Translations under genes and position numbers: made by a program | The notes under the pieces: model-generated | Seen by the model: only the letters and a program-made list of their open reading frames with translations | Databases searched by the model: none | Told to the model about the DNA's origin: nothing | Part shown: piece by piece, positions 2,009 through 40,049 of the stretch | Layout of the letters: every line of letters starts with the position of its first letter | How positions within the stretch are numbered: position 1 is the first letter of the stretch | From: a virus | Taxonomy: Duplodnaviria > Caudoviricetes | DNA: 40,049 nucleotides | Virus record (IMG/VR): IMGVR_UViG_3300008255_000230 | Coordinates: 1 to 40,049 of that record | Direction: 5' to 3' (one strand)

Positions 2009-2249
2009 GGCTCTTTGCAATCCTTTATGTCTCAATAACCCCCGCAACCGCAGCGCAGTTTTGTACTTAACGCTACAGCTGCGGGGTTGTTGCCCCAGTT
2101 ATTCGCGGTTATTTGTCTAATACAACCACTGGAGCAACATCCAGCCCCGGCATAATGGGCTAGGGCTGGTAAAAGCTTGTGCGGCGCGGGCAATCCGCTG
2201 TGCGCCGTTCATTTATCAACTAACGCTACAGCGTTCCGCGCCGCACAAA

Positions 2250-2657: not shown

Positions 2658-2894
2658 TTCTTCCACCTCCATTGCTTGATCGTCGCACCATATTCCTTGG
2701 TCGGGAACGCTGAATCGAATACTATCAGCGCGTTCTCGCGGCTGTTACTGGACCGCGCTACGCTAGGTGCTGGCACAAACTGCACCCTGGGCGACAGACG
2801 CAGCCACGTCAATGTCGAAGCGAAATTCGTCGTTGAGCACAGCCCAGAACTCCGGCGGCGTACGCCATTCTTGGCGCGGGTCAATTATTTTCAT
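2654..2894 (-). pseudogene. internally deleted, frameshifted phage DNA N6-adenine methyltransferase (Dam-like)
   Basis: Frame A (2894-2763) MKIIDPRQEWRTPPEFWAVLNDEFRFDIDVAAS matches the phage Dam N-terminus (WxTP...F..D.AA). Frame B LSPRVQFVPAPSVARSSNSRENALIVF matches the C-terminus. The NPPY/F catalytic core is absent. Confidence 0.7.
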
Positions 2895-6831: not shown

Positions 6832-6860
6832 ATTATACGCTATTGCGGGCGAAAAGTCAA
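6832..6860 (-). promoter_or_regulatory. sigma70-type promoter
   Basis: Minus strand TTGACT-17 bp-TATAAT, about 60 bp upstream of 6768. Confidence 0.85.
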
Positions 6861-8449: not shown

Positions 8450-8641
8450 TCACTTTAGCTTGGTCACTCTACCTTTAGAGTCTGTCCAAGCTGTTAGACG
8501 CCAATCCCAGTTTGAGCTGGCAACAAAGAGTGGACCACCGATAACTCGATGGCCCACCTCATCTAAGATGTACAGGACAGCTCCAGCAGAATATGCCTTC
8601 TTTGCTTCATTAGAAGTTTTGAAGGTTCTACTAAGCTTCAT
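8450..8641 (-). CDS. hypothetical protein
   Basis: GAGGAG RBS, 63 aa. Confidence 0.65.
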   Translation of the reverse strand: MKLSRTFKTSNEAKKAYSAGAVLYILDEVGHRVIGGPLFVASSNWDWRLTAWTDSKGRVTKLK

Positions 8642-8861: not shown

Positions 8862-9275
8862 TTAGTCCCCAAAGATTTGGTCCTTCTCAAGATTGTGCAG
8901 GAAGAACTCTTGTTGTTCCGGACTCATTTGGTTAAATATATCACGGATTAGTTCTGTAGAAGATTTTTTCTTCCCTTTAACCTTCTTCCCCTCGACCACC
9001 GATTTGTTTGGATTCCACTTCTTTATGGGAGTCCTATAAGATCGGTTATCGAGATTGGTTACATTCAAGAGGGATTTGGGAACCACCTTCCCATCCGTAT
9101 CAAAGGTGTAGTGGCGCTCCTTACTGGGGTGAGAAAGCACTTTCTGCGCCATCCAATGAAGGGCGAATAAACGGATGTGAGTTTCTGAAAGAAGGGACCA
9201 ATCGAAGTTGATTGGCCCCCTTTTCTCATCTGTCACAGTTGCCGTCTTCTTGAGAACGTCAATTGTTAGATCCAT
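8862..9275 (-). CDS. hypothetical protein
   Basis: Start reassigned to ATG 9275 (MDLTIDV) after GGAG; Lys-rich linker and MSPEQQEFFL C-terminus. Confidence 0.7.
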   Translation of the reverse strand: MDLTIDVLKKTATVTDEKRGPINFDWSLLSETHIRLFALHWMAQKVLSHPSKERHYTFDTDGKVVPKSLLNVTNLDNRSYRTPIKKWNPNKSVVEGKKVKGKKKSSTELIRDIFNQMSPEQQEFFLHNLEKDQIFGD

Positions 9276-9576
9276 CTGTAAGATTCTCCAAAGAGTTAAA
9301 GAGTTCTTCGGAATCACTCATTAGATAGGCTGCTAATAGTGTGTTCATACACAGGTTGTCCATGAATTCATCTTGGTTCAATTGAGCTGCGATACATTTC
9401 TCACTTAGAGAGAGAGAAACCTTCTCTGAACCAAGCCGGAGGGTGAGCTCCCTACATTGGGCCATTACTATAAGAAATGCCGCTAAAAAGTCATCGCGTT
9501 TCCCGCTGTTGTTTGGGAGAATCTTCCGTGTTGTACGGATAAAAAGCTCTTCGTGTTTCGTCAGTTTGAGTTTCAT
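9259..9576 (-). CDS. hypothetical protein
   Basis: AAGGTG RBS, 105 aa. Confidence 0.65.
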   Translation of the reverse strand: MKLKLTKHEELFIRTTRKILPNNSGKRDDFLAAFLIVMAQCRELTLRLGSEKVSLSLSEKCIAAQLNQDEFMDNLCMNTLLAAYLMSDSEELFNSLENLTDGSNN

Positions 9577-9624
9577 GCTTCACCTTTCTGGGCGCAGCCC
9601 TTAGGCTGCGCCCAATTAGTTGAG

Positions 9625-9819
9625 TCAAAATGACTCTTTCCTATCCACATAGTTAGTTGGATACTTATCTGTCTGGTGATAGTGGTGATGAACTCGCCAA
9701 CCACACCGAATGAGTAGGTCGATCTCAGATGAAATCAGCCATTCCACATTGTCCTTATCCACCTTGTTTTTGAGGTGAATAGCTGTTTGGTTCTTGTAGT
9801 TGAGTAGATACCAGCTCAT
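9625..9819 (-). CDS. hypothetical protein
   Basis: 64 aa, ATGA overlap with the upstream gene. Confidence 0.6.
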   Translation of the reverse strand: MSWYLLNYKNQTAIHLKNKVDKDNVEWLISSEIDLLIRCGWRVHHHYHQTDKYPTNYVDRKESF

Positions 9820-10025
9820 TTTTCGTACTTCTCCAAGGTGCGAGTGATACGATCCATCTTCTTTTCCATTATTATCATCTCACGGTGGGCCGTCTCTTGA
9901 AATATGTTGGACAGCTCCTCTGGCACCGCTAATGAGAGGTTCTCAAGAACGTTGATGGCGCTCCCAATCTGTTTCAAAGATGGGCGTCTTCTCTTCTCAC
10001 GGTTGTTTAGCTCATAGATTGACAT
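9816..10025 (-). CDS. hypothetical protein
   Basis: AAGGAG RBS, 69 aa. Confidence 0.65.
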   Translation of the reverse strand: MSIYELNNREKRRRPSLKQIGSAINVLENLSLAVPEELSNIFQETAHREMIIMEKKMDRITRTLEKYEK

Positions 10026-10127
10026 TTTGCGACTCCTTCTTCTGGATTAATCCAGAATTGCAAGATGCCCAATGCATCTTAGGAGGGGCACCTTGAGAGG
10101 TGCCCTACCTGAGAGACACTAGACCTG

Positions 10128-10442
10128 TTATTTGGTCTCGCTTAAGATGGAGAGGAGCTCATCTGGGTCTTGGGCCAGCAATGTTGAGAGTGCCATAACA
10201 TCTATGGCCATTGCCCGAATAATGGCACCTCGATCACCTATGATGGTTTGAGCAGCTTTGGATACTACCTCAGCCATTAGAGCATTATACCCCTCTGATT
10301 GTATCTCTTTTTGTATGGTGGCAATAATCAGTGAGAGGCTAAAGCAAACACCTAGGTGAAAGTTCTCTTGATGTGAAAAGGCCTCATCAATGATGTCGGT
10401 TAAGATCTTCTTACCACCATTCATCTTCTTCTCCATCTTCAT
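10128..10442 (-). CDS. hypothetical protein
   Basis: Start reassigned to ATG 10442 (MKMEKK) after AAAGGAG; the longer start overlaps 10495..10962. Confidence 0.6.
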   Translation of the reverse strand: MKMEKKMNGGKKILTDIIDEAFSHQENFHLGVCFSLSLIIATIQKEIQSEGYNALMAEVVSKAAQTIIGDRGAIIRAMAIDVMALSTLLAQDPDELLSILSETK

Positions 10443-10494
10443 CTCCTTTTGCCAACCAAGTTGGCGTTCAAAAACTGAACAACGTCCGGTAATC

Positions 10495-10962
10495 TCAAAA
10501 GTAACGAGCGCGGCCCTGAAACTTGGTCTCAGCACTAGCTTTAGCCTGATAATCATGGGAGAGGACAATGAGCCCACGGGGCTGCTCATATTTGGTGTCG
10601 GTAACAACCTTCCAGAAGTACAAAATGACCTCATGCCCATAAAGGTCGCCACAGTACCGACCATCTGGTAAGTCATCAATAATTTCAGCTCTAACAAGAT
10701 CGGGGGAGCCAGAAAGATCGTTGTTGGCAATCCAGAAATCAACTACATCCACAGCTCTTCCATGAAAGTAGATGAAGGGCCATAAGAACTTTCTCTTAGG
10801 ACTAAATGGGGATTCTTCAACATCGGCTTCTGAGAAAAACTCGATTGGATTCTCCTCTGAGCCTTTTGGAAAGTCGTTTGGGTCTATCTCATGTTCGTTG
10901 TCACTACGACCTTCGACATAGTCGTAATCTTCTGGGCTGAAATTGTCTGGGTAGTTACTCAT
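10495..10962 (-). CDS. hypothetical acidic protein
   Basis: AAGGAG RBS; acidic N-terminus MSNYPDNF. Confidence 0.7.
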   Translation of the reverse strand: MSNYPDNFSPEDYDYVEGRSDNEHEIDPNDFPKGSEENPIEFFSEADVEESPFSPKRKFLWPFIYFHGRAVDVVDFWIANNDLSGSPDLVRAEIIDDLPDGRYCGDLYGHEVILYFWKVVTDTKYEQPRGLIVLSHDYQAKASAETKFQGRARYF

Positions 10963-11161
10963 CTTCTTTCTCCTTAACGTTAGCGGAGCTGACTGGTCTT
11001 AGGGCCATCTCAAGACCTAGGTGGAGTGTCCCATCTAAGAGAGCATCCTGGAAGATTCTGCGGGCATTATCTAAGGGGTATGACTCTGATGGATAGCAGC
11101 GCGTCCATCTTTTTTCCCCCCTAACTCTTTTGAACAATCCATACCTTCTGATACTTCTCAT
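10955..11161 (-). CDS. hypothetical protein, first gene of the leftward early arm
   Basis: AAGGAG RBS; 68 aa; bracketed by 43-bp direct repeats. Confidence 0.7.
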   Translation of the reverse strand: MRSIRRYGLFKRVRGEKRWTRCYPSESYPLDNARRIFQDALLDGTLHLGLEMALRPVSSANVKEKEDE

Positions 11162-11199
11162 CTTCTTTCTCCTTAACGTCAGCGTAGCTGACAGTTCTT
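10958..11199. repeat. 43-bp direct repeat pair (10958-11000 and 11157-11199)
   Basis: 39/43 identical; each copy contains hairpin, RBS and ATG. Confidence 0.9.
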
Positions 11200-11299
11200 T
11201 TGAGCTTACCTCATCAGTGTCAGTTGCTCAACCTGACAGACAGCCCCCAGCTGTGCAAAGCACAGCTGAGGGGGCTGTTTCGGCAATTCGGCGCAGCCG

Positions 11300-11579
11300 A
11301 CCAGCTTAGTAATCTTCTCAATCTTTGGGTCAAGCCCAAAGCACTTGGTTGGTGAGAAATTCTTAGTAGCTGCGATCATCTAGTCACAAGACCCATATTT
11401 TCTCAGTTGCTCATCTCGTTGGTGTTACGAACCTGAGATGAGCCAGAAAAATGGGATAGAGGACAGCAGATTGTAAGAACCTTCCAACTGGGTATCTCAC
11501 TACAAAGTGGGGAGTCGCGGGCCGTTGGAGGGCCGACGAACTTGGGACAGTGAGAAGATTGCTATTGGTAATAGCTGGT
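11300..11579. ncRNA. candidate structured non-coding element (multi-stem, about 280 nt)
   Basis: Closing helix 11307-11320/11551-11564 plus 11300-11306/11573-11579 encloses three internal hairpins; no credible ORF. Family not recognised. Confidence 0.4.
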
Positions 11580-11901
11580 TAGACTAATTATGGTGCGAAG
11601 CACCAAAATGGGGGGAGGGACTGAGCTTAGTTATCATCCAAAACCTGGAAAGTGGAACTTTTAGATGAACGCCCATAAACCATTCATCTAGCTCATGTCA
11701 GCGGGGCCGACCAATTATTAGAATCTCAGAAGCTTGTCTCAATTACTAATTGAGAGGGGCTTTGCTAAGGTTAGCGTTAGTACCACCTCAACGCCGGTGT
11801 CTTTGAGCTTAGCTCAGAAGTTCACCTTGTGCCTTACCACATTTTGGGGGTGGTAGATCCCAGATGGAATCCGCCCCCAACCATTAAACTTTTACTATCC
11901 C

Positions 11902-11930
11902 ATTATAGCATAATAAGGGCCAGATGTCAA
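11902..11930 (-). promoter_or_regulatory. consensus sigma70 promoter driving the leftward arm
   Basis: Minus strand TTGACA-17 bp-TATAAT with extended -10 TG and an A-tract upstream. Confidence 0.9.
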
Positions 11931-11946
11931 GTACTTTTTTCAAGGT

Positions 11947-12235
11947 GATTGGTCGTAGACTGATTGGTCGTAGACCAATCTGGTTGGTCGTAGACCAATT
12001 GGGGGGTGTGAAATCAGATTGGAGGGTGTGGGATCAGGCTGGGAGCCTGCGCTCCAAGTTGTGGACTAACTCCCATCTCCGTTCAGTAAATGAACGGAGG
12101 TTGGGATACGCCCAACAAGGTTGGGATACGCCCAACGCGGTCGTAGACCGATCCGTTGGTGCCTAGCACCTTTTCGGCTACGCCGAAGATCGGTGTAGCC
12201 GAACATTCGGAGTAGCCGAACAGCTGAAACGCTGA
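11947..12235. repeat. cluster of short palindromes / mini-hairpins, partly tandem
   Basis: GGTCGTAGAC x4, GTTGGGATACGCCCAAC x2, three TCGG-N5-CCGA hairpins (loops CTACG, TGTAG, AGTAG), GGTGCCTAGCACC. Confidence 0.85.
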
Positions 12236-12281
12236 CATTAAGAGGAGAGTAGCATTAGTTTGTGCTAACATAGGGAACTAG

Positions 12282-12556
12282 TACTATGGGCGTATGGGCA
12301 CTCGTATACTAGGGCCCCCCTAGGGTTGGGAGGGGCATCCCGCCCATCTGGGTATGGCTAACCAACTGGGTATGGCTAACCAACTGGGTATGGCTAACCA
12401 TGGGAGTAGCACAAACCAGCTCAAAAATTTTTTTCATAGAGATTTTTTTTCTCTATATGTGTATATATAAAGATGTCCCCACAGGGGGCCAGATGTGTCC
12501 CCGTACGGCCAATGGGGGGGGGACCCTAGTATACAGACGCCCATATGCCCACAGTA
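12282..12556. repeat. 39-bp imperfect inverted repeat around an AT-rich core
   Basis: 12282-12320 versus the reverse complement of 12518-12556, 32/39 identical. Confidence 0.85.
12348..12400. repeat. 18-bp tandem repeat CTGGGTATGGCTAACCAA x3
   Basis: Read directly. Confidence 0.92.
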
Positions 12557-12614
12557 GTATACAGAAAGTACAAAACTACACTAATACTAAATTGTGCTAT
12601 CACTAGACTCAATC

Positions 12615-12668
12615 AGTTAGCTACTAGTAGTTAGCTACTAGTAGTTAGCTACTAGTAGTTAGCTACTA
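12615..12668. repeat. 14-bp tandem repeat AGTTAGCTACTAGT x3.9
   Basis: Read directly. Confidence 0.92.
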
Positions 12669-12819
12669 AGAGAGCGCCTTGCGCAGATCTCCGTTCATTT
12701 ACTGAACAGGAGTGTTGGGTAACTACCAAGATGGCGCGAAGCGCCACCAAGCTTACACACACACACACATATGAGGTCAGCTCCGCTAATTTGGGAGTAC
12801 ACTATTCAGCTGGTGGTGG

Positions 12820-12876
12820 AGCTAACCATTTGAGTAGCTAAGCATTTGAGTAGCTAACCATTTGAGTAGCTAACCA
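12820..12876. repeat. 16-bp tandem repeat AGCTAACCATTTGAGT x3.5
   Basis: Read directly; one substitution in copy 2. Confidence 0.92.
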
Positions 12877-12879
12877 CTG

Positions 12880-12908
12880 TTGTCGGCTACGCCGATATGG
12901 AGTATAAT
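12880..12908 (+). promoter_or_regulatory. possible sigma70 promoter
   Basis: TTGTCG-17 bp-TATAAT; overlaps the hairpin TCGGC-TAC-GCCGA. Confidence 0.5.
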
Positions 12909-12965
12909 AGACAGATGGGCGCTTCCGCCCATGGGCGCTTCCGCCCGCATGGGCGAAAAATAGAT

Positions 12966-12994
12966 TTGACTTTAGCACTAAAATGTGCTAAACT
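12966..12994 (+). promoter_or_regulatory. sigma70 promoter with a palindromic operator in its spacer
   Basis: TTGACT-17 bp-TAAACT with extended TG; TTTAGCAC-N6-GTGCTAAA spans 12971-12992. Confidence 0.7.
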
Positions 12995-13052
12995 TCATGT
13001 GTCAATGGTTCACCAGACTGTCTGGAGGACCGAAAAAAAAGGAGTTTGGGAC

Positions 13053-13388
13053 ATGGCGAAGAACTCAAAGTCTGGGAAATGGTTGGGGACAGTCTACTCC
13101 TGTCCGACAAAATACGGAGTAAGGACGCTGGACCTGTCAAAATTGTCCGCGGAAGCGAAAAAGTATGTACTAGGTTTAGGGTGCGCATTCATACTACGCC
13201 AGTACAGTGCTGAGAAACCGGGACAGTTATATAATGGAGTGATTCGGACCTCTAAGACAGGTAAGTCTAAATCGGAAAAAATCACCGATTTGGCGAAGGG
13301 GATGCCAATTGCTGAAAAAGCCGCGCTTTTGGTAAATGGTATGACAGCAGCCGAAAAAGCAGTGCTCCTTGCTATGCTCGGGAAGTAG
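13053..13388 (+). CDS. hypothetical basic protein
   Basis: Start reassigned to ATG 13053 (MAKNSK) after AAAGGAG; the longer start runs through the promoter. Confidence 0.75.
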   Translation: MAKNSKSGKWLGTVYSCPTKYGVRTLDLSKLSAEAKKYVLGLGCAFILRQYSAEKPGQLYNGVIRTSKTGKSKSEKITDLAKGMPIAEKAALLVNGMTAAEKAVLLAMLGK

Positions 13389-13455
13389 TACACTAGCTAG
13401 GCAGGGAAGTTAGGTCAAATGGCCAACTTCCCTGCCTGAAAACGGGAGAGAAAAA

Positions 13456-13809
13456 ATGGTTTTTGAGAAGAATGATTTTAACTGGGACTACCTTCCACTA
13501 GTACAGCAGGTGATTAATACTTCTGTGCTGGAGGACATAGCAGACTCTACTATTTCGGAGATTGACTGCTGCCGTTCCCTTAGCGAACTTGAGATGTACG
13601 CGGTCGTTAGTAAACTGATTGAACTACTGGGATGGAGCAGAGGAATACCAGCTTACGAAGTCACTCGCGAAATGAGTAAGGAACTGGTACAGAATGGTTT
13701 CAGTATACCAGAAGAGTGGTACACCAATCTTCCGGTGGAGGCGCAGGAGAAGCGTAGGGAACTGCTCGACGAGTGCAAAAGGCGGAGTGAAGAGGAGGAC
13801 TTTAGATAA
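13456..13809 (+). CDS. hypothetical acidic protein
   Basis: GGGAG RBS; followed by a terminator. Confidence 0.75.
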   Translation: MVFEKNDFNWDYLPLVQQVINTSVLEDIADSTISEIDCCRSLSELEMYAVVSKLIELLGWSRGIPAYEVTREMSKELVQNGFSIPEEWYTNLPVEAQEKRRELLDECKRRSEEEDFR

Positions 13810-13821
13810 GTAGTACAGCTT

Positions 13822-13848
13822 AGGGGAGGCGAAAGCCTCCCCTTTTCT
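13822..13848 (+). terminator. Rho-independent terminator
   Basis: AGGGGAGGC-GAAA-GCCTCCCCT followed by TTTCT. Confidence 0.85.
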
Positions 13849-14048
13849 ATGCCTATGGTGTACTAATGTGATGGTACACTACACAGCTACTACCCCCCCT
13901 AAGGGGGGATACTAGCACACCAATACATACGTAACATCCCATCTAGTGCTTAACAAATATATTTTAATAGCACTTCTTTGTGCTTTTGTGCTACACACAA
14001 ATTTGTGCTTTTGTGCGGCGCAAGCTCTGCTCGGCTTCCGGAGAGACT

Positions 14049-14170
14049 GTGAGAAGATGAGAGGTGAGAAGATGAGAGGTGAGAAACGCAGCGCTTGCGC
14101 TGTCCTCCTGAACGCAGCGCTTTTGTGTGGTACTAAGAGGTGAGAAGGTGAGAAGATGAGAGGTGAGAAG
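14049..14170. repeat. purine-rich GGTGAGAAGATGAGA repeats in two blocks
   Basis: 15-bp unit repeated, interrupted by two AACGCAGCGCTT copies. Confidence 0.8.
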
Positions 14171-14311
14171 AAAAAGAAGAGATTGAACGAATCAGCGCGG
14201 GGCCGCTGCGCCCTTCTTCTATATACTATATACAGGAGCGCTTACCTCCAGTTGGGAGTAGCACAAGATTGAATAACTCCCCCACAGACTACAATCGCAG
14301 TTCGAAATAAC

Positions 14312-14340
14312 TTGACATCTTCCCTTTTACCTGCTACAAT
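14312..14340 (+). promoter_or_regulatory. sigma70-type promoter of the morphogenesis arm
   Basis: TTGACA-17 bp-TACAAT with extended TG, 25 bp before terS. Confidence 0.8.
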
Positions 14341-14365
14341 CAGGGCGGTATAAAAGGGAACTTGC

Positions 14366-14920
14366 ATGTCTCCACAAATGTTTTCTTCACTAAAATCCTT
14401 TGATAGACGCCATCCGAGTGGGGATGGAAGAAGGAAGTATCAGCTCAAAGAACTTCGGTCGCGCCACCAAGAGATTTTGAGGAGAAACTTGGAGGGCCAA
14501 TCCAATGAGCGAATTGCCCAAGACCTTTCCATTACTCCTGTTGCTGTCTCCTACACACTGAACTCCGATATCGGAAGGGAGAAGATAGAAGAGCTCCAGG
14601 TAATAGGAGATTTGGATACAGCCTCAGTTATTAGAGAAATCCATGATCTTATTCCCCATGCGCTCCAGGTTCACGGAGATATTGTTAAGGATGAGAATAT
14701 GGATCCTCGAATCCGTCAGAAGTCCGCAGACAGTATTTTGGACCGCGGTGGCTTTGGTCGTGTAACCAGAGTTGAGGCGCACATGAAACATGAGAAAGAC
14801 GTTCAGAGGGGGAAAGAGGAAATTCGGAAGAGGGCAGTTGAGCTTGGTCTAATCAAACCAGTTATTGAGTGCTCAAGTAATGAGCTATGCACAACACAGT
14901 TGGAGATTAAAGATGAATAG
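14366..14920 (+). CDS. putative terminase small subunit (HTH)
   Basis: HTH GQSNERIAQDLSITPVAVS and IRQKSADSILDRGG motif; first gene of the packaging arm. Confidence 0.65.
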   Translation: MSPQMFSSLKSFDRRHPSGDGRRKYQLKELRSRHQEILRRNLEGQSNERIAQDLSITPVAVSYTLNSDIGREKIEELQVIGDLDTASVIREIHDLIPHALQVHGDIVKDENMDPRIRQKSADSILDRGGFGRVTRVEAHMKHEKDVQRGKEEIRKRAVELGLIKPVIECSSNELCTTQLEIKDE

Positions 14921-35915: not shown

Positions 35916-38900
35916 ATGCCATCTTACTATATGGAAGATACAGACACTACACTAAACTTTCCTGATGCTACATCTAAGGAGAGTATAATTAAGTATGTGA
36001 ATAACAAGTATCCTACTCATATTGATTATTTAAAGCAGAAGTACGCTCCTCCGCCACCAGAGTCAGCTGGAGTAGTCCGTTCCTTTGGGCGTGGAATAGT
36101 TGCTGGTGGCGCAGGGATTGTTAGGGATCTCGGAACATTGATTAGGGTGACAGCTCCGTATGATATAACAACTCCGATTGGAATGATCCAAGCTCCATTT
36201 ATAAGATCATATAAGGATAGACTTCATAATAAGGTTGGCCAATACCTTGAGGATAAAGGAACAGAGTGGGCGGCCAACTTCAATATGAACCCAGAGGACT
36301 CTTCTTCTCTAATTGATATGTATAGGAAAGAAGGACTTAAGTCAGCACTAAAACATGGTTTTGACCCAACTAGAGTTGCGTATCAAATTGGTGAGGTACT
36401 CCCATTTGTTGCTTCTCTTCTAATACCTGAGGCGGCAATAACCAAAGTAGCAACAGTGTCTAGAGCGGCTAAACTTGCTGAGGGTGGACTCACCGCTACG
36501 AAGGCACTAAAGCAGATTAAAGCCATTCGTATGATTACCGGTGGAGTTATTGATGGCTCCCTAGAAGCTACAGGGGTCTACAGGGAAGCAGAAGAGGCAG
36601 GTGGAACTGAGTTACAGAAACAAGCTGCATTCCTAGGATCAGCAATCTGGATAGGTCTGTTAAATACAATATCTTTTGAATACGCTGCTGGGCCACTGAT
36701 AAACAAGATAGGGATTAAAGAACTTGTTAATAAGTCAACAACTATTAATCAGAAAATGATTAGAATGTTAGGGGCAAGTGGATTAGAGGGATTAACTGAG
36801 TGGTTAGAAGAAGCAGGGAGCACTGCCGCACTTCAGGCTGCTGGATTCCCTCAAGACTTTCCAGAAAAATTAAAGCAGGCCGCAGATGTTATTATACCAT
36901 CTATGTTGAGCGCTAGTCTGCTTAGTGGAATTGGATCACTTGGTGGGAATGAATCTGAGGTGAGGAAAGAGCTTGAGGATCTAAAGGCTAAAGCAGTGTC
37001 CGAAGGATTGCAGATGTCCAAACATCTGTCATCCCGTATGAGTAAGGATATGCTAGACTCCTTCTTGAAGTATGATAAGAAGGAGAGTGATAAACCGCTT
37101 AAGGCTGCACAGCGTAGGATTAGAAATATTGGGGTTATCCACGAAGATGATATTCCCCTTGTAGCTGCTCGGGTAGAAGAGTTTAAGAAGGCTGAGATTA
37201 AACGCGCTAACGATGAGAATAGACCAATCCCTGATTTCAGCAAAGATACCTTTCACGCTGCTACTGAACTTGAGATGATGTTAAAGATAAAAGAGAAGAG
37301 TAAGGTGAGAATTCTGAGAGAGGAGGACATTGTTCTTACACCTGAACAGAGGGAGGAACTAGCAACTGGTTTAGTACATGCATTTGGTGAGGAGACTAAA
37401 GGTAGTGATGTTAAAGGTGTTACTCTGACTGATCCAATGGCGAAAGATATTGCTGTTGGGATGTTTGAACAGGTTCTTAGGAATAGAGCTATCTCTAGTG
37501 GAACTACTGTGAAAGAGGAGATGGAGAATATCGCTGGCTTTTTGACGGGTGGAGAAGCACTTCCTGATAACTTCTTTGAAGTTGGAGAGACCTTGAATCA
37601 GGAAACAGTTGGGGATGAGCTAACTTCTTTTCTTGTAAAAACCTATAATGAGAAAATAACCTCGCAAGGCTTATTACCAGAATATGGTGCAAAGAAGGGT
37701 GTTGGTAATAGTGTAGAGTTTAGCTCTGGATCAGTTGTTGGAACAATAGATATTACTAAGGGAAAGGTTAAAGGTGATGTTATTGGTGAATTTTCTGATG
37801 CAACTAACAATATTAAATTTATGTATACTGGAGTACGATTACGTAAGGCTGACGCAATTAATGTGAATGTTAATGGAATATCAATGAGTCTTAACTCTTT
37901 CATTTTCAAAACAAGGCGCAGTACAAATGATGCGTTCAAAGCAGCTGAAAAAGCTGCATATATGCTAAGGGATAATGTTAATTTATCTCACAGCCTAAAG
38001 TTAACTAAAAATACTTTCTCAAAAGAAGTACCAATGGATGTACAAAACTTTGTAAATACTCTAACTGAAGGTTTTGGAATATCTGGAATAAGGGTTATGT
38101 CTGATGCTGCTGATATTGGTGATATGTCGTATGAAGAGTATCTTACAAGTTCACTTGTATCAGATAGTGCTAGATCAGAGATAAGAGGGATATTGAAAGG
38201 AACCGCAGGCGGTTCTGCCATTTTTACTAAAACTAACGCGATTGCCTTTAAGGGTATAATATATAAAAAGGGTCTTCCTAAGGCTAATATTATGGAAACA
38301 TTAGTCCATGAGGTAGGACATCATATTTTGTGGAGTCTACTTGAAAAAAGAGTAGATGATCCAATTTATAAAGCTATTGATAAAGACTACAAGGATTGGA
38401 AGAAAGGAGTACTTAGTAACTTAAAACGATTAACTAAGGAAGAGTTTTTTGCTGAATACGAAGGTGTTTTTGGCATAGGCTTAAGGGAGGATGAATGGGA
38501 TCTTTTCTCACACTACTCTAGTAAGGAACGAATCTACCTTTTGAATAAAGAAGAATGGTTTGCTAGTCAAGTAGTTCGTTGGTCACAGACACAGCAGGTG
38601 CCAAAAACAGTGGTAGAGAAGTTCTTCTCTGAGATAGCTGATGCTTTGAACGAACTACTAGGGCGTAGGAATAATGTGTTACCGGTGAAGAGTGTTGAGA
38701 CATTCTTAAATGAAGTTTTTTCTGACACTAAGGTTAAAGAAACCCTTCACAGCTTTCTCTCAAAAGAGGGTGGTCCTCTGCTCCAGACAGAGGTGAAAAG
38801 TGGAGTTCCGAAAGGTTCTATCAGCTCTGTGCATATTGGCTCTGCGGATGGACCAATGAAGTATTTGTTTAGAGGACTAAATGCGCCAGACCTAAGTACA

Positions 38901-40049
38901 GCGCTACATGAGCTCACACACTTTGCAATCTTAACCTCATCCCCAAAACTGAGGGAGTTAATCGAAGAGAGGTTGAGCAAAAGTCCTGCGTTCAAGAGAC
39001 ATGGTGGGAAAAGGGAGATTGTGAACTGGACACGAGAACAGCATGAGTATGCGGCTAAGATGGGAGAAGCTTACTTTATTACAAGAAAGCTTGGGGATAA
39101 AAAGCTTGAGAGCATGTTCGAGGTTATTAGGCAGAAATTGGGGAAGATTTACAAGAATGGTGTGAAAGGTATTCTGGGGAAAGACGCATATAATGTTGAG
39201 CTGGAACCAATGTTTGATGCTATCTTCTTTGGTACTGGTGCAGCTGATGTTATGAAAAACCACGCAATTGCTATTGGAGAATTGTATCAGGGCCAAGAAG
39301 GGGGTGGGAGAAAAAGAACTCTGACTGCTACCGGACGTGAGAGGTATCATGATGTTAGAGAGTTAGATGATTCTGATATTGAGGACTGGGTTGTTCAGGA
39401 GCAAAACATCTTGAAGAGCGCAGAGAGGGTTGATAGAATGGCCAGGCGGTTTAAGAGTGGTCAAACTCCTCTTCCTTATGAAATGATGGCCGCAGCAACT
39501 ATTATTGACATGGACGTACAATTTATGGAAGGACTAATAGGTAGTAATATTAGTCAAGATGTGCTAGATGCACATGCTAGGTTTAGGGAAATGCAGCAGG
39601 GTGGACTGAAACAAGCTAGTGAGGCAGGAAGGAACCTGTATGCACTAAAGCTCCATCATGCTCACGCCTATTTGGCAGAGGCCTATCAAGCTGGTGTTAT
39701 GACAGAAGATGAAGTACGCTCAATGGAGATGATGCATGAATTATCTTTGTATCAGATACAAGATCTTGCGAATAAGATTAAGGATAGATACTCAGTTATT
39801 AAGAAAAAAGCCCTTAGTGGTCTATCCCTATCTGAAGTATTCGTAAGTGCTTGGTATAACTCAATCCTGATTAACCCAGGAATTCAGGTTGGTAACATAG
39901 TGAGTAATGTAGCACAAGCCTCTTATATAATTGGGCACAGACTTGTACTATCTACTCTAGATTATGCAGGCCATAAAGTACTTGGTACAAAGAGACAGTA
40001 TGCGTTTGGTGAAGCCTCTAGATTGGCTAAAGAGTTAGGACTTGGTCTA
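35916..40049 (+). CDS. giant ejection / polyvalent protein (partial, at least 1378 aa) with two HExxH motifs
   Basis: Not in the ORF track (no stop in window). ATG 35916 after AAGGA; in-frame TLVHEVGHH (38307) and STALHELTH (38907); frame spot-checked open to the last base (RLAKELGLGL). Confidence 0.85.
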   Translation, partial: MPSYYMEDTDTTLNFPDATSKESIIKYVNNKYPTHIDYLKQKYAPPPPESAGVVRSFGRGIVAGGAGIVRDLGTLIRVTAPYDITTPIGMIQAPFIRSYKDRLHNKVGQYLEDKGTEWAANFNMNPEDSSSLIDMYRKEGLKSALKHGFDPTRVAYQIGEVLPFVASLLIPEAAITKVATVSRAAKLAEGGLTATKALKQIKAIRMITGGVIDGSLEATGVYREAEEAGGTELQKQAAFLGSAIWIGLLNTISFEYAAGPLINKIGIKELVNKSTTINQKMIRMLGASGLEGLTEWLEEAGSTAALQAAGFPQDFPEKLKQAADVIIPSMLSASLLSGIGSLGGNESEVRKELEDLKAKAVSEGLQMSKHLSSRMSKDMLDSFLKYDKKESDKPLKAAQRRIRNIGVIHEDDIPLVAARVEEFKKAEIKRANDENRPIPDFSKDTFHAATELEMMLKIKEKSKVRILREEDIVLTPEQREELATGLVHAFGEETKGSDVKGVTLTDPMAKDIAVGMFEQVLRNRAISSGTTVKEEMENIAGFLTGGEALPDNFFEVGETLNQETVGDELTSFLVKTYNEKITSQGLLPEYGAKKGVGNSVEFSSGSVVGTIDITKGKVKGDVIGEFSDATNNIKFMYTGVRLRKADAINVNVNGISMSLNSFIFKTRRSTNDAFKAAEKAAYMLRDNVNLSHSLKLTKNTFSKEVPMDVQNFVNTLTEGFGISGIRVMSDAADIGDMSYEEYLTSSLVSDSARSEIRGILKGTAGGSAIFTKTNAIAFKGIIYKKGLPKANIMETLVHEVGHHILWSLLEKRVDDPIYKAIDKDYKDWKKGVLSNLKRLTKEEFFAEYEGVFGIGLREDEWDLFSHYSSKERIYLLNKEEWFASQVVRWSQTQQVPKTVVEKFFSEIADALNELLGRRNNVLPVKSVETFLNEVFSDTKVKETLHSFLSKEGGPLLQTEVKSGVPKGSISSVHIGSADGPMKYLFRGLNAPDLSTALHELTHFAILTSSPKLRELIEERLSKSPAFKRHGGKREIVNWTREQHEYAAKMGEAYFITRKLGDKKLESMFEVIRQKLGKIYKNGVKGILGKDAYNVELEPMFDAIFFGTGAADVMKNHAIAIGELYQGQEGGGRKRTLTATGRERYHDVRELDDSDIEDWVVQEQNILKSAERVDRMARRFKSGQTPLPYEMMAAATIIDMDVQFMEGLIGSNISQDVLDAHARFREMQQGGLKQASEAGRNLYALKLHHAHAYLAEAYQAGVMTEDEVRSMEMMHELSLYQIQDLANKIKDRYSVIKKKALSGLSLSEVFVSAWYNSILINPGIQVGNIVSNVAQASYIIGHRLVLSTLDYAGHKVLGTKRQYAFGEASRLAKELGLGL

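What the first reader, a model, noticed from the sequence alone, without database searches (positions are those of the whole stretch)
11300..11579. Unrecognised ~280-nt multi-stem fold in the 730-nt ORF-free leader, with wobbles favouring the antisense strand
Seen: closing helix TAGTAATCTTCTCA/TGAGAAGATTGCTA (11307-11320/11551-11564) extended by ACCAGCT/AGCTGGT. It encloses hairpin 11323-11341, a long interrupted hairpin 11392-11455 (CCCAT, TTTTCT and GCTCATCTC arms) and hairpin 11480-11532 with inner stem 11496-11511. The non-Watson-Crick pairs in these stems read as G-U on the plus strand and A-C on the minus strand, although the strong promoter at 11902-11930 fires on the minus strand. Inference: a novel phage ncRNA antisense to the early leader, or a fold of the single-stranded plus DNA strand.
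Basis: partly seen in the sequence, partly recalled or inferred. Interest (0 to 1): 0.72.

Follow-up and report, generated by a model that had tools for sequence, protein, structure and literature searches.

The report
Hammerhead-capped orphan phage leader RNA fold
An uncultured groundwater phage carries a real, uncatalogued 280-base RNA-like fold between a predicted strong early promoter and a previously unnoticed hammerhead ribozyme motif that likely cuts the folded leader free as its own RNA, but the fold is more stable on the opposite strand, so which strand works and what it does are untested.

Summary
The fold is real: z about -7 on plus and -5.5 to -5.9 on minus. The plus fold beat the best window in 88 of 88 shuffled leaders. 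The predicted layout is: 12/12 sigma70 promoter, about 655-nt non-coding leader holding the fold, self-cut at 11239/11238, early genes. Best reading (0.42): the fold is the core of a leader RNA the ribozyme releases, likely a stable protein-binding RNA. The strand is open. Plus has lower energy, 11 vs 4 G-U pairs and a tight five-way junction, the sense pattern in 19 of 19 E. coli RNA segments. But plus has no convincing promoter or terminator, and the energy gap is unremarkable once composition is fixed (23 of 150 shuffles). No homologue was found, so covariation is untested. The scan noted the promoter-leader-hammerhead layout before in other phages, and hammerheads in phage early transcripts are in print.

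The parts
11902..11930 (-). Sigma70-type early promoter (TTGACA-17-TG-TATAAT); predicted start about 11894-11895
   Evidence: 12 of 12 consensus; start site inferred from spacing
11714..11755 (-). Weaker internal promoter-like site (10 of 12) whose -35 overlaps a 19-bp AT-rich palindrome (11737-11755, operator-like)
   Evidence: function inferred
11580..11895 (-). 5' part of the leader: several hairpins and a three-way junction, moderately structured, no strand bias
   Evidence: MFE -98.9 vs -99.0
11591..11605 (.). 6-bp GC-triloop hairpin flanking the fold on the promoter side
11300..11320 (.). Closing helix, left arm; pairs with 11551-11564 and 11573-11579 (21 bp, 8-nt bulge)
11323..11341 (.). 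Hairpin A (7-8 bp), forms on both strands
11343..11493 (.). Long interrupted arm B, about 150 nt; core helices shared by both strands, base helix specific to plus
   Evidence: z -3.75 plus, -3.33 minus
11496..11548 (+). Hairpins C (11496-11511) and D (11514-11548); complete a five-way junction with 1-2-nt linkers on plus, poorly defined on minus
   Evidence: 11478-11550: z -1.3 plus, 0.0 minus
11551..11579 (.). Closing helix, right arm
11289..11299 (.). Small GC-triloop hairpin between the fold and the ribozyme
11200..11286 (-). Type II hammerhead ribozyme: stem II 11286-82/11210-06, GAAA 11281-78, extended stem III 11278-11240, GUC with predicted cut between 11239 and 11238, stem I 11238-33/11223-18, CUGAUGA 11217-11, 6-bp pseudoknot 11231-26/11205-00
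   Evidence: (RF02276, 35 bits, cut-off 37)
11157..11199 (-). 43-nt hairpin-plus-RBS start module of the first early gene, repeated (91%) before the second gene at 10958-11000
10955..11161 (-). First early ORF (68 aa, no family, no homologue found), 77 nt after the predicted cut

Best explanation
The 280-base fold lies between a 12-of-12 sigma70 promoter match and a complete type II hammerhead motif on the minus strand, and is likely the central domain of a roughly 655-base non-coding leader RNA that the ribozyme would cut off the phage's first transcript and that most likely acts as a stable protein-binding (decoy or scaffold) RNA early in infection. Steps: (1) shown in sequence: promoter match, no credible ORF, fold, hammerhead core and pseudoknot; (2) inferred from family knowledge: host RNA polymerase starts near 11895 and the hammerhead cleaves at 11239/11238; (3) inferred: the 5' product ends in an unusually long stem III hairpin (17 bp) plus a 2',3'-cyclic phosphate, which would protect it, while the early mRNA starts with a 5'-OH inside stem I and is insulated from the leader; (4) speculative: the released RNA binds a host or phage protein.
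For: All hammerhead core nucleotides, three stems and a 6-bp loop I/3'-tail pseudoknot are present; this pseudoknot is the type II signature in PMC3088659. The active conformer lies within 1.0-4.9 kcal/mol of the MFE in six contexts before the pseudoknot (-8.8 as a duplex) is counted. The fold ends 14 nt before stem II and is significant on minus too (z -5.5 and -5.9; 64 pairs shared). The predicted 657-nt product folds at z -6.2 (20 shuffles). Stem III carries a 23-nt insert against the Rfam model. The only strong promoter in the region reads through the fold on minus. TAAGCT occurs 4 times on minus in the leader, once in the fold's closing helix and once in the hammerhead tail, out of 13 on that strand window-wide (noticed post hoc, weak).
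Against: Single-sequence strand features point to plus: MFE -113.8 vs -94.3, 11 vs 4 G-U pairs, MFE equal to the centroid, and a five-way junction with 1-2-nt linkers only on plus. In 19 of 19 E. coli control segments the sense strand had the lower MFE (six genes, 15 segments are rRNA pieces). The minus energy was reached by 14 of 88 best-window shuffles. There are no homologues, so no covariation. Related phages show short promoter-to-gene distances where checked and no type II hammerhead (0 of 49). The hammerhead scores 2 bits under the Rfam cut-off and was not assayed. Nothing tested bears on the decoy role.
Confidence: 0.42

Rival explanations
1. The fold is selected on the plus strand. 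It would be a separate ~280-nt five-way-junction RNA antisense to the leader, cut from a longer convergent transcript at its 21-bp closing helix (RNase III-like), and the hammerhead would serve to insulate the early mRNA from the sense-antisense overlap.
For: Lower MFE, more G-U pairs, A-richer loops (0.40 vs 0.30) and G excess (+0.15) on plus, which matches the sense pattern of the E. coli controls. The gap is unmatched in 78 left-arm windows and the G skew is matched in 1 of 78. The plus fold beats 88 of 88 window-picking shuffles. All five junction linkers are 1-2 nt.
Against: No plus promoter above 7 of 12 in 10850-11290; the nearest weak match (9 of 12) is at 10195. Three terminator-like plus hairpins lie upstream and none follows the fold. 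The gap is matched by 23 of 150 shuffles, and the G>C excess has binomial p 0.12. The neighbouring repeat DNA 11901-12180 shows the same gap (-20.2). With 30 shuffles the z order flipped. PMC1892782 (passages) warns that G-U differences from single predicted structures are error-prone.
Confidence: 0.33
2. The fold works in DNA, as a single-stranded or cruciform signal near the genome end (priming, ejection or packaging), like the neighbouring palindromes.
For: DNA fold z -7.7 on plus vs -4.9 on minus. The fold is flanked by GC-GNA-GC triloop hairpins, and that heptamer occurs 11 times in 9001-14400 vs 9 times in the other 34.6 kb. It lies about 0.8 kb from a stretch of doubled depth that may be a terminal repeat.
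Against: Tandem G-T wobbles, many internal loops and a five-way junction are more RNA-like (inference). None of the fold's own loops is a GNA triloop. No virion RNA polymerase domain was found in the large proteins. The adjacent ribozyme needs RNA.
Confidence: 0.1
3. The fold is a captured cassette or relic: a structured RNA gene or small mobile element inserted in reverse orientation, now just carried in the leader and cut away by the hammerhead.
For: Closed by terminal inverted repeats; absent from related phages; explains a plus-strand bias without a plus promoter.
Against: Single copy, with no target duplication seen. Helices are intact with no sign of decay. No donor was found.
Confidence: 0.08
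4. The sense leader fold acts in cis on RNA polymerase as a put-like antiterminator for the long early operon before being cut off.
For: Promoter-proximal position; the early arm is over 11 kb with terminator-like hairpins at 8558 and 5437.
Against: Terminator-like sites are no more frequent than chance (11 vs 9.1 +/- 3.2). A second promoter (11 of 12) sits at 6860. Self-cleavage would untether the RNA. No put-like two-hairpin unit was identified (put features recalled).
Confidence: 0.07

Closest known systems
Type II hammerhead ribozymes of bacteria and phages (Rfam RF02276; Perreault et al. 2011, PMC3088659; passages, section 6 and first part of section 11 read)
   Same: Full core, open stem II, loop I/3'-tail pseudoknot, phage intergenic position upstream of a gene.
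   Different: Stem III is extended by about 23 nt; the ribozyme is single rather than in a cluster; it is preceded by about 600 nt of structured non-coding leader. This covers the adjacent ribozyme, not the 280-nt fold.
HHphage of haloviruses HF1/HF2 (PMC3088659, section 11)
   Same: A hammerhead just upstream of the first ORF of an early polycistronic transcript, where the mapped 5' end lies within 3 nt of the cut.
   Different: That one is a core variant 13 nt from the start codon in an archaeal virus; here the core is canonical, the cut is 77 nt from the start codon, and a large folded upstream product is predicted.
Theta ribozymes that release phage tRNAs (PMC10879173; search listing and abstract start only)
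   Same: A small self-cleaving ribozyme placed next to a structured phage RNA.
   Different: HDV-like fold and tRNA payload; no tRNA in this window.
Large phage-associated ncRNAs GOLLD, ROOL, OLE (PMC12286853; search listing and abstract start only)
   Same: Several hundred bases, multi-stem, non-coding, function open.
   Different: No match to any Rfam model at E<=10; no conservation shown.
T7 early leader cut off by RNase III at R0.3 (recalled; one search gave no source)
   Same: Gene-free first transcript segment removed before the first early gene.
   Different: The cut here would be self-catalysed, and the leader is longer and strongly folded.
Leader-derived or antisense phage regulators: P4 CI, P1 C4, P22 sar, lambda OOP, HK022 put (recalled)
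   Same: Structured RNA at the head of an early operon.
   Different: Those are about 70-80 nt; no convincing target was found among 22 phage start regions.

Membership tests
Type II hammerhead (adjacent element 11200-11286, minus) | Core CUGANGA, GAAA and UH around three stems, with stem II open | tested here: met
   CUGAUGA, GAAA, GUC; stems of 6, 5 and 9+8 bp
Type II hammerhead (adjacent element) | Pseudoknot between loop I and the tail 3' of stem II | tested here: met
   UUGAGC/GCUCAA, 6 bp, duplex -8.8 kcal/mol; feature from PMC3088659
Type II hammerhead (adjacent element) | Score at or above the Rfam gathering threshold | tested here: not met
   35 vs 37 bits, with a 23-nt stem III insert; E 0.0015 window-wide, 3.4e-7 single-family
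Type II hammerhead (adjacent element) | Self-cleavage | not testable with these tools
   Needs an in vitro assay
Any Rfam 15 family (280-nt fold) | Covariance-model match | tested here: not met
   only a 53-nt miRNA-model hit at E 8.4 inside the fold, and an E 9.2 hit touching its edge
Conserved structured RNA family | Homologues with covariation | tested here: inconclusive
   No homologue obtained, so covariation could not be computed
Ribozyme-excised or circular RNA (retrozyme or viroid-like) | A second ribozyme upstream or on the other strand | tested here: not met
   One hammerhead only by Rfam and by descriptor on both strands; unknown ribozyme classes are not excluded
Retron msr-msd | Reverse transcriptase gene next to the ncRNA | tested here: not met
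   No RT among flanking ORFs; about 16% of the genome is missing; retron features recalled
Antisense RNA gene on plus | Own promoter and terminator on plus | tested here: not met
   Best 7 of 12 in 10850-11290, no sigma54 pattern, no U-tract terminator after 11579; other promoter types not covered
N4-type hairpin promoter or ssDNA signal | GNA-triloop hairpins plus a virion RNA polymerase | tested here: inconclusive
   GNA hairpins flank the fold but are not in it; no RNAP domain hit; the last ORF is cut by the contig end; N4 features recalled

The most novel reading that the evidence does not exclude
An ambisense RNA locus at the phage genome end. The sense strand gives a hammerhead-released ~655-nt leader RNA, while the opposite strand encodes a new class of ~280-nt five-way-junction RNA. 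The ribozyme exists to decouple the early mRNA from this two-sided RNA unit.
Probability: 0.18. Interest if true: 0.78.

Novelty: new variant of a known kind. Interest (0 to 1): 0.5.

Why it matters
Why DNA phages carry hammerheads has been open since 2011 (PMC3088659). Here one ribozyme sits exactly where it would release a large folded non-coding RNA as the first product of infection, which suggests the cut-off leader, not only the trimmed mRNA, may be the point. The locus is compact and directly testable by in vitro transcription, cleavage and structure probing on both strands. Its weight is limited: it is an orphan without covariation, expression data or a known host, and the scan has noted this layout in other phages.

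Tried and rejected
Homologue searches, all negative. blastn of the leader against 50,697 phage and 72,556 plasmid records: no match. Own genome: only the fold's locus and the 38-nt RBS repeat. Viral-contig pattern scans gave the same phage plus chance hits: 9 unrelated inverted repeats, L109 and L120, whose matches stop at 19 and 18 nt. The metagenome scan returned 1 locus, a record of the window's own length. nhmmer and a hammerhead descriptor over 86 loci found only self copies; the E 0.12 hit in the L049 group lies in what reads as coding sequence. The 12 genome-contig loci gave nothing. RF02276 matched 0 of 49 related phage records (50 of the 80 loci were given, 1 not held; positive control). 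A single-sequence covariance model of arm B matched 0 of 92 other loci and 0 of 49 records. Rfam gathering scan of 8 related loci: 0. Desulfofustis phage LS06-2018-MD01 (closest annotated phage, terminase 36%): no ribozyme at E<=1. The structured gap in L072 is palindromic junction DNA with no visible likeness. Closest proteins: terminase 55%, exonuclease 47%, none for the 68-aa first gene. Sequencing runs: no RNA holder listed; laid DNA contigs showed no variant inside the fold. Antisense targeting: 5 of 44 duplexes reached at most 1 of 30 shuffles, about 3 expected, all fragmented. Coding: the 57-aa minus ORF 11379-11206 has no RBS and no family hit, and crosses the ribozyme. Repeated TGAGA and CCAA words in the fold were noted post hoc and not relied on. 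Twister, group I/II intron, tmRNA, Y RNA and SRP likeness were considered from recall and have no Rfam support. An attempt to extend the missing 16% of the genome found nothing. My first hammerhead constraint was off by one base and was redone. Literature searches returned no paper; others returned none describing a ribozyme-released phage leader of this kind. The library lacks most subscription journals, and supplements (for example Perreault's Dataset S1) were not read.

Full report
Context. The window is an 84%-complete virus record with minus-strand early genes to the left (Sak4-like, exonuclease, ParB-like) and plus-strand terminase, portal-like, capsid and tail genes to the right. The runs that hold it are aquifer and groundwater metagenomes; one holds 98% of the sampled words and may be the source. 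It is an orphan: the closest terminase is 55% identical, the closest exonuclease 47%, and the first early protein has no relative. A 274-nt contig at 12371-12644 has twice the depth of its flanks in that run (18.8 vs 9.1 and 10.6). I read this, as an inference, as a terminal repeat, which would make the leader the first thing transcribed.

Observation. As RNA, plus folds at -113.8 kcal/mol (z -7.1 and -7.4) and minus at -94.3 (z -5.5 and -5.9), with no shuffle as stable among 200 and 300. On plus the fold is a five-way junction: a 21-bp closing helix, hairpin A, a 150-nt interrupted arm B, and hairpins C and D, with linkers of 1-2 nt. Rfam has no family for the fold.

The E-value scan found Hammerhead_II on the minus strand at 11285-11199 (35 bits, cut-off 37; E 5.5e-5 locally, 0.0015 window-wide). 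Every core nucleotide is canonical. Stems I, II and III have 6, 5 and 9+8 pairs, and loop I pairs with the tail behind stem II over 6 bp, the pseudoknot that PMC3088659 describes as typical of type II and needed for fast cleavage. The active conformer is 1.0-4.9 kcal/mol above the MFE in six contexts before the pseudoknot is counted. Stem II begins 14 nt after the fold. The predicted cut (11239/11238) lies 77 nt before the first start codon and about 656 nt after the predicted start from a 12-of-12 promoter. The 5' product folds at z -6.2 (20 shuffles) and would end in a 17-bp hairpin, because stem III carries a 23-nt insert. No second ribozyme was found on either strand, so excision as a circle has no support.

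Which strand. For plus: lower MFE, 11 vs 4 G-U pairs, unpaired A 0.40 vs 0.30 and G skew +0.15. In 19 E. coli control segments the true strand had the lower MFE in 19, more G-U in 16, more unpaired A in 19, positive G skew in 18 and better z in 17 (six genes, mostly rRNA, not independent). No left-arm window of 78 shows so large a gap. For minus or neither: 64 pairs are shared, and only one wobble lies inside a shared helix. The gap is matched by 23 of 150 composition-preserving shuffles, although composition is itself part of the signal. The hammerhead has the better z on its wrong strand, though the better MFE on its right one. With 30 shuffles the z order of the fold flipped. Repeat DNA at 11901-12180 shows the same gap. 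Plus has no promoter above 7 of 12 in 10850-11290 and no terminator after the fold, whereas three terminator-like plus hairpins lie upstream. PMC1892782 (passages) says strand calls need alignments and that G-U differences from single structures are error-prone. I therefore rate the two strands close to even. I lean to minus because that is the only strand with a defined transcription unit.

Homologues. None was found, by blastn, pattern scans of viral and metagenome contigs, nhmmer and a descriptor, or a covariance model of arm B (0 of 92 loci, 0 of 49 records). Related phages often share the divergent promoter layout, but where checked the promoter is close to the first gene, and 0 of 49 carry a type II hammerhead (control). 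The leader thus looks like a lineage-specific cassette. Covariation, the decisive test, could not be run. No RNA holder was listed.

Mechanism. Most likely (0.42) host polymerase transcribes the leader and the hammerhead cuts it off co-transcriptionally. This would leave an early mRNA with a 5'-OH hairpin end and a closed, 3'-protected ~655-nt RNA whose core is this fold. With no ORF and no convincing base-pairing target among 22 phage start regions, a protein-binding decoy or scaffold role is the most economical guess; it is untested. Rivals: a plus-strand five-way-junction RNA from which the ribozyme insulates the mRNA (0.33), a DNA structure near the genome end (0.10; DNA z -7.7 vs -4.9, flanking GNA-triloop hairpins), an inverted relic cassette (0.08), and a put-like antiterminator (0.07). 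Both leading readings share the claim that the hammerhead separates the folded region from the early mRNA.

Comparison and novelty. The ribozyme works like, and by anatomy belongs to, the type II hammerheads, 2 bits short of the Rfam cut-off and not assayed. Hammerheads at the head of phage early transcripts are in print (HF1/HF2, PMC3088659). The fold belongs to no Rfam family. Searches returned no paper, and 43, 101, 102 and 120 none on such a released leader; the library is incomplete. Earlier scan notes report the same promoter-leader-hammerhead layout in other phages, with no sequence likeness to this one; I did not test those loci. I had reached the cassette reading before that look-up. 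Verdict: real, a new variant of a known kind, interest 0.5.

Noticed in passing
window 7265, 9594/9607, 10985, 11184, 11293, 11597, 12179, 12738, 12782, 12888: A family of GC-GNA-GC / GC-UNC-GC triloop hairpins, 11 heptamers in 9001-14400 vs 9 in the other 34.6 kb; several sit directly 5' of ribosome-binding sites, and their orientation mostly flips across the junction region.
   Followed up: partly
window 12344-12668: Tandem 18-nt and 14-nt repeats bracket a 274-nt stretch with doubled depth in run X1, a possible direct terminal repeat; L003 carries one more 18-nt unit.
   Followed up: partly
window 11375 (run X5): A low-depth contig follows the window up to 11375, inside the fold, then continues for 255 nt or more in unrelated sequence not found elsewhere in the window: chimera or structural variant.
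   Followed up: partly
window 11802-11816 vs 11199-11213; 11403-11413 vs 11220-11230: A 14-of-15 copy of the hammerhead's 3' end lies near the start of the leader, and an 11-nt copy of its loop I lies inside arm B; either could compete with the pseudoknot.
   Followed up: no
window 2030-2240: A second strongly folding, apparently non-coding stretch of long GC-rich hairpins in the early arm (minus -128.9 for 1961-2240; z -5.8 for 1800-2420), no Rfam match.
   Followed up: partly
window 2763-2894 (minus): A 43-aa ORF matching the N-terminus of the phage Dam methyltransferase family (PF05869, E 0.003), apparently truncated.
   Followed up: partly
window 14040-14172: Purine-rich GTGAGAAGAT repeats upstream of the late promoter; the same 9-10-mer forms the fold's closing helix (6 matches vs 0.76 expected, chosen post hoc).
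   Followed up: partly
window 11902-11937 and 14305-14340: The early and late sigma70 promoters share ACTTGACATCT around -35; a 39-nt stretch over the early promoter also aligns (7 differences) to unrelated contigs in runs X3 and X4.
   Followed up: no
window 10040-10110: Three tandem perfect 7-8-bp hairpins upstream of ORF 10025-9816 (z about -5 on both strands).
   Followed up: no
window 35916-40049: Open-ended ORF of at least 1378 aa with two HExxH motifs and a weak SprT-like hit, resembling a large polyvalent or ejection protein (label recalled).
   Followed up: no
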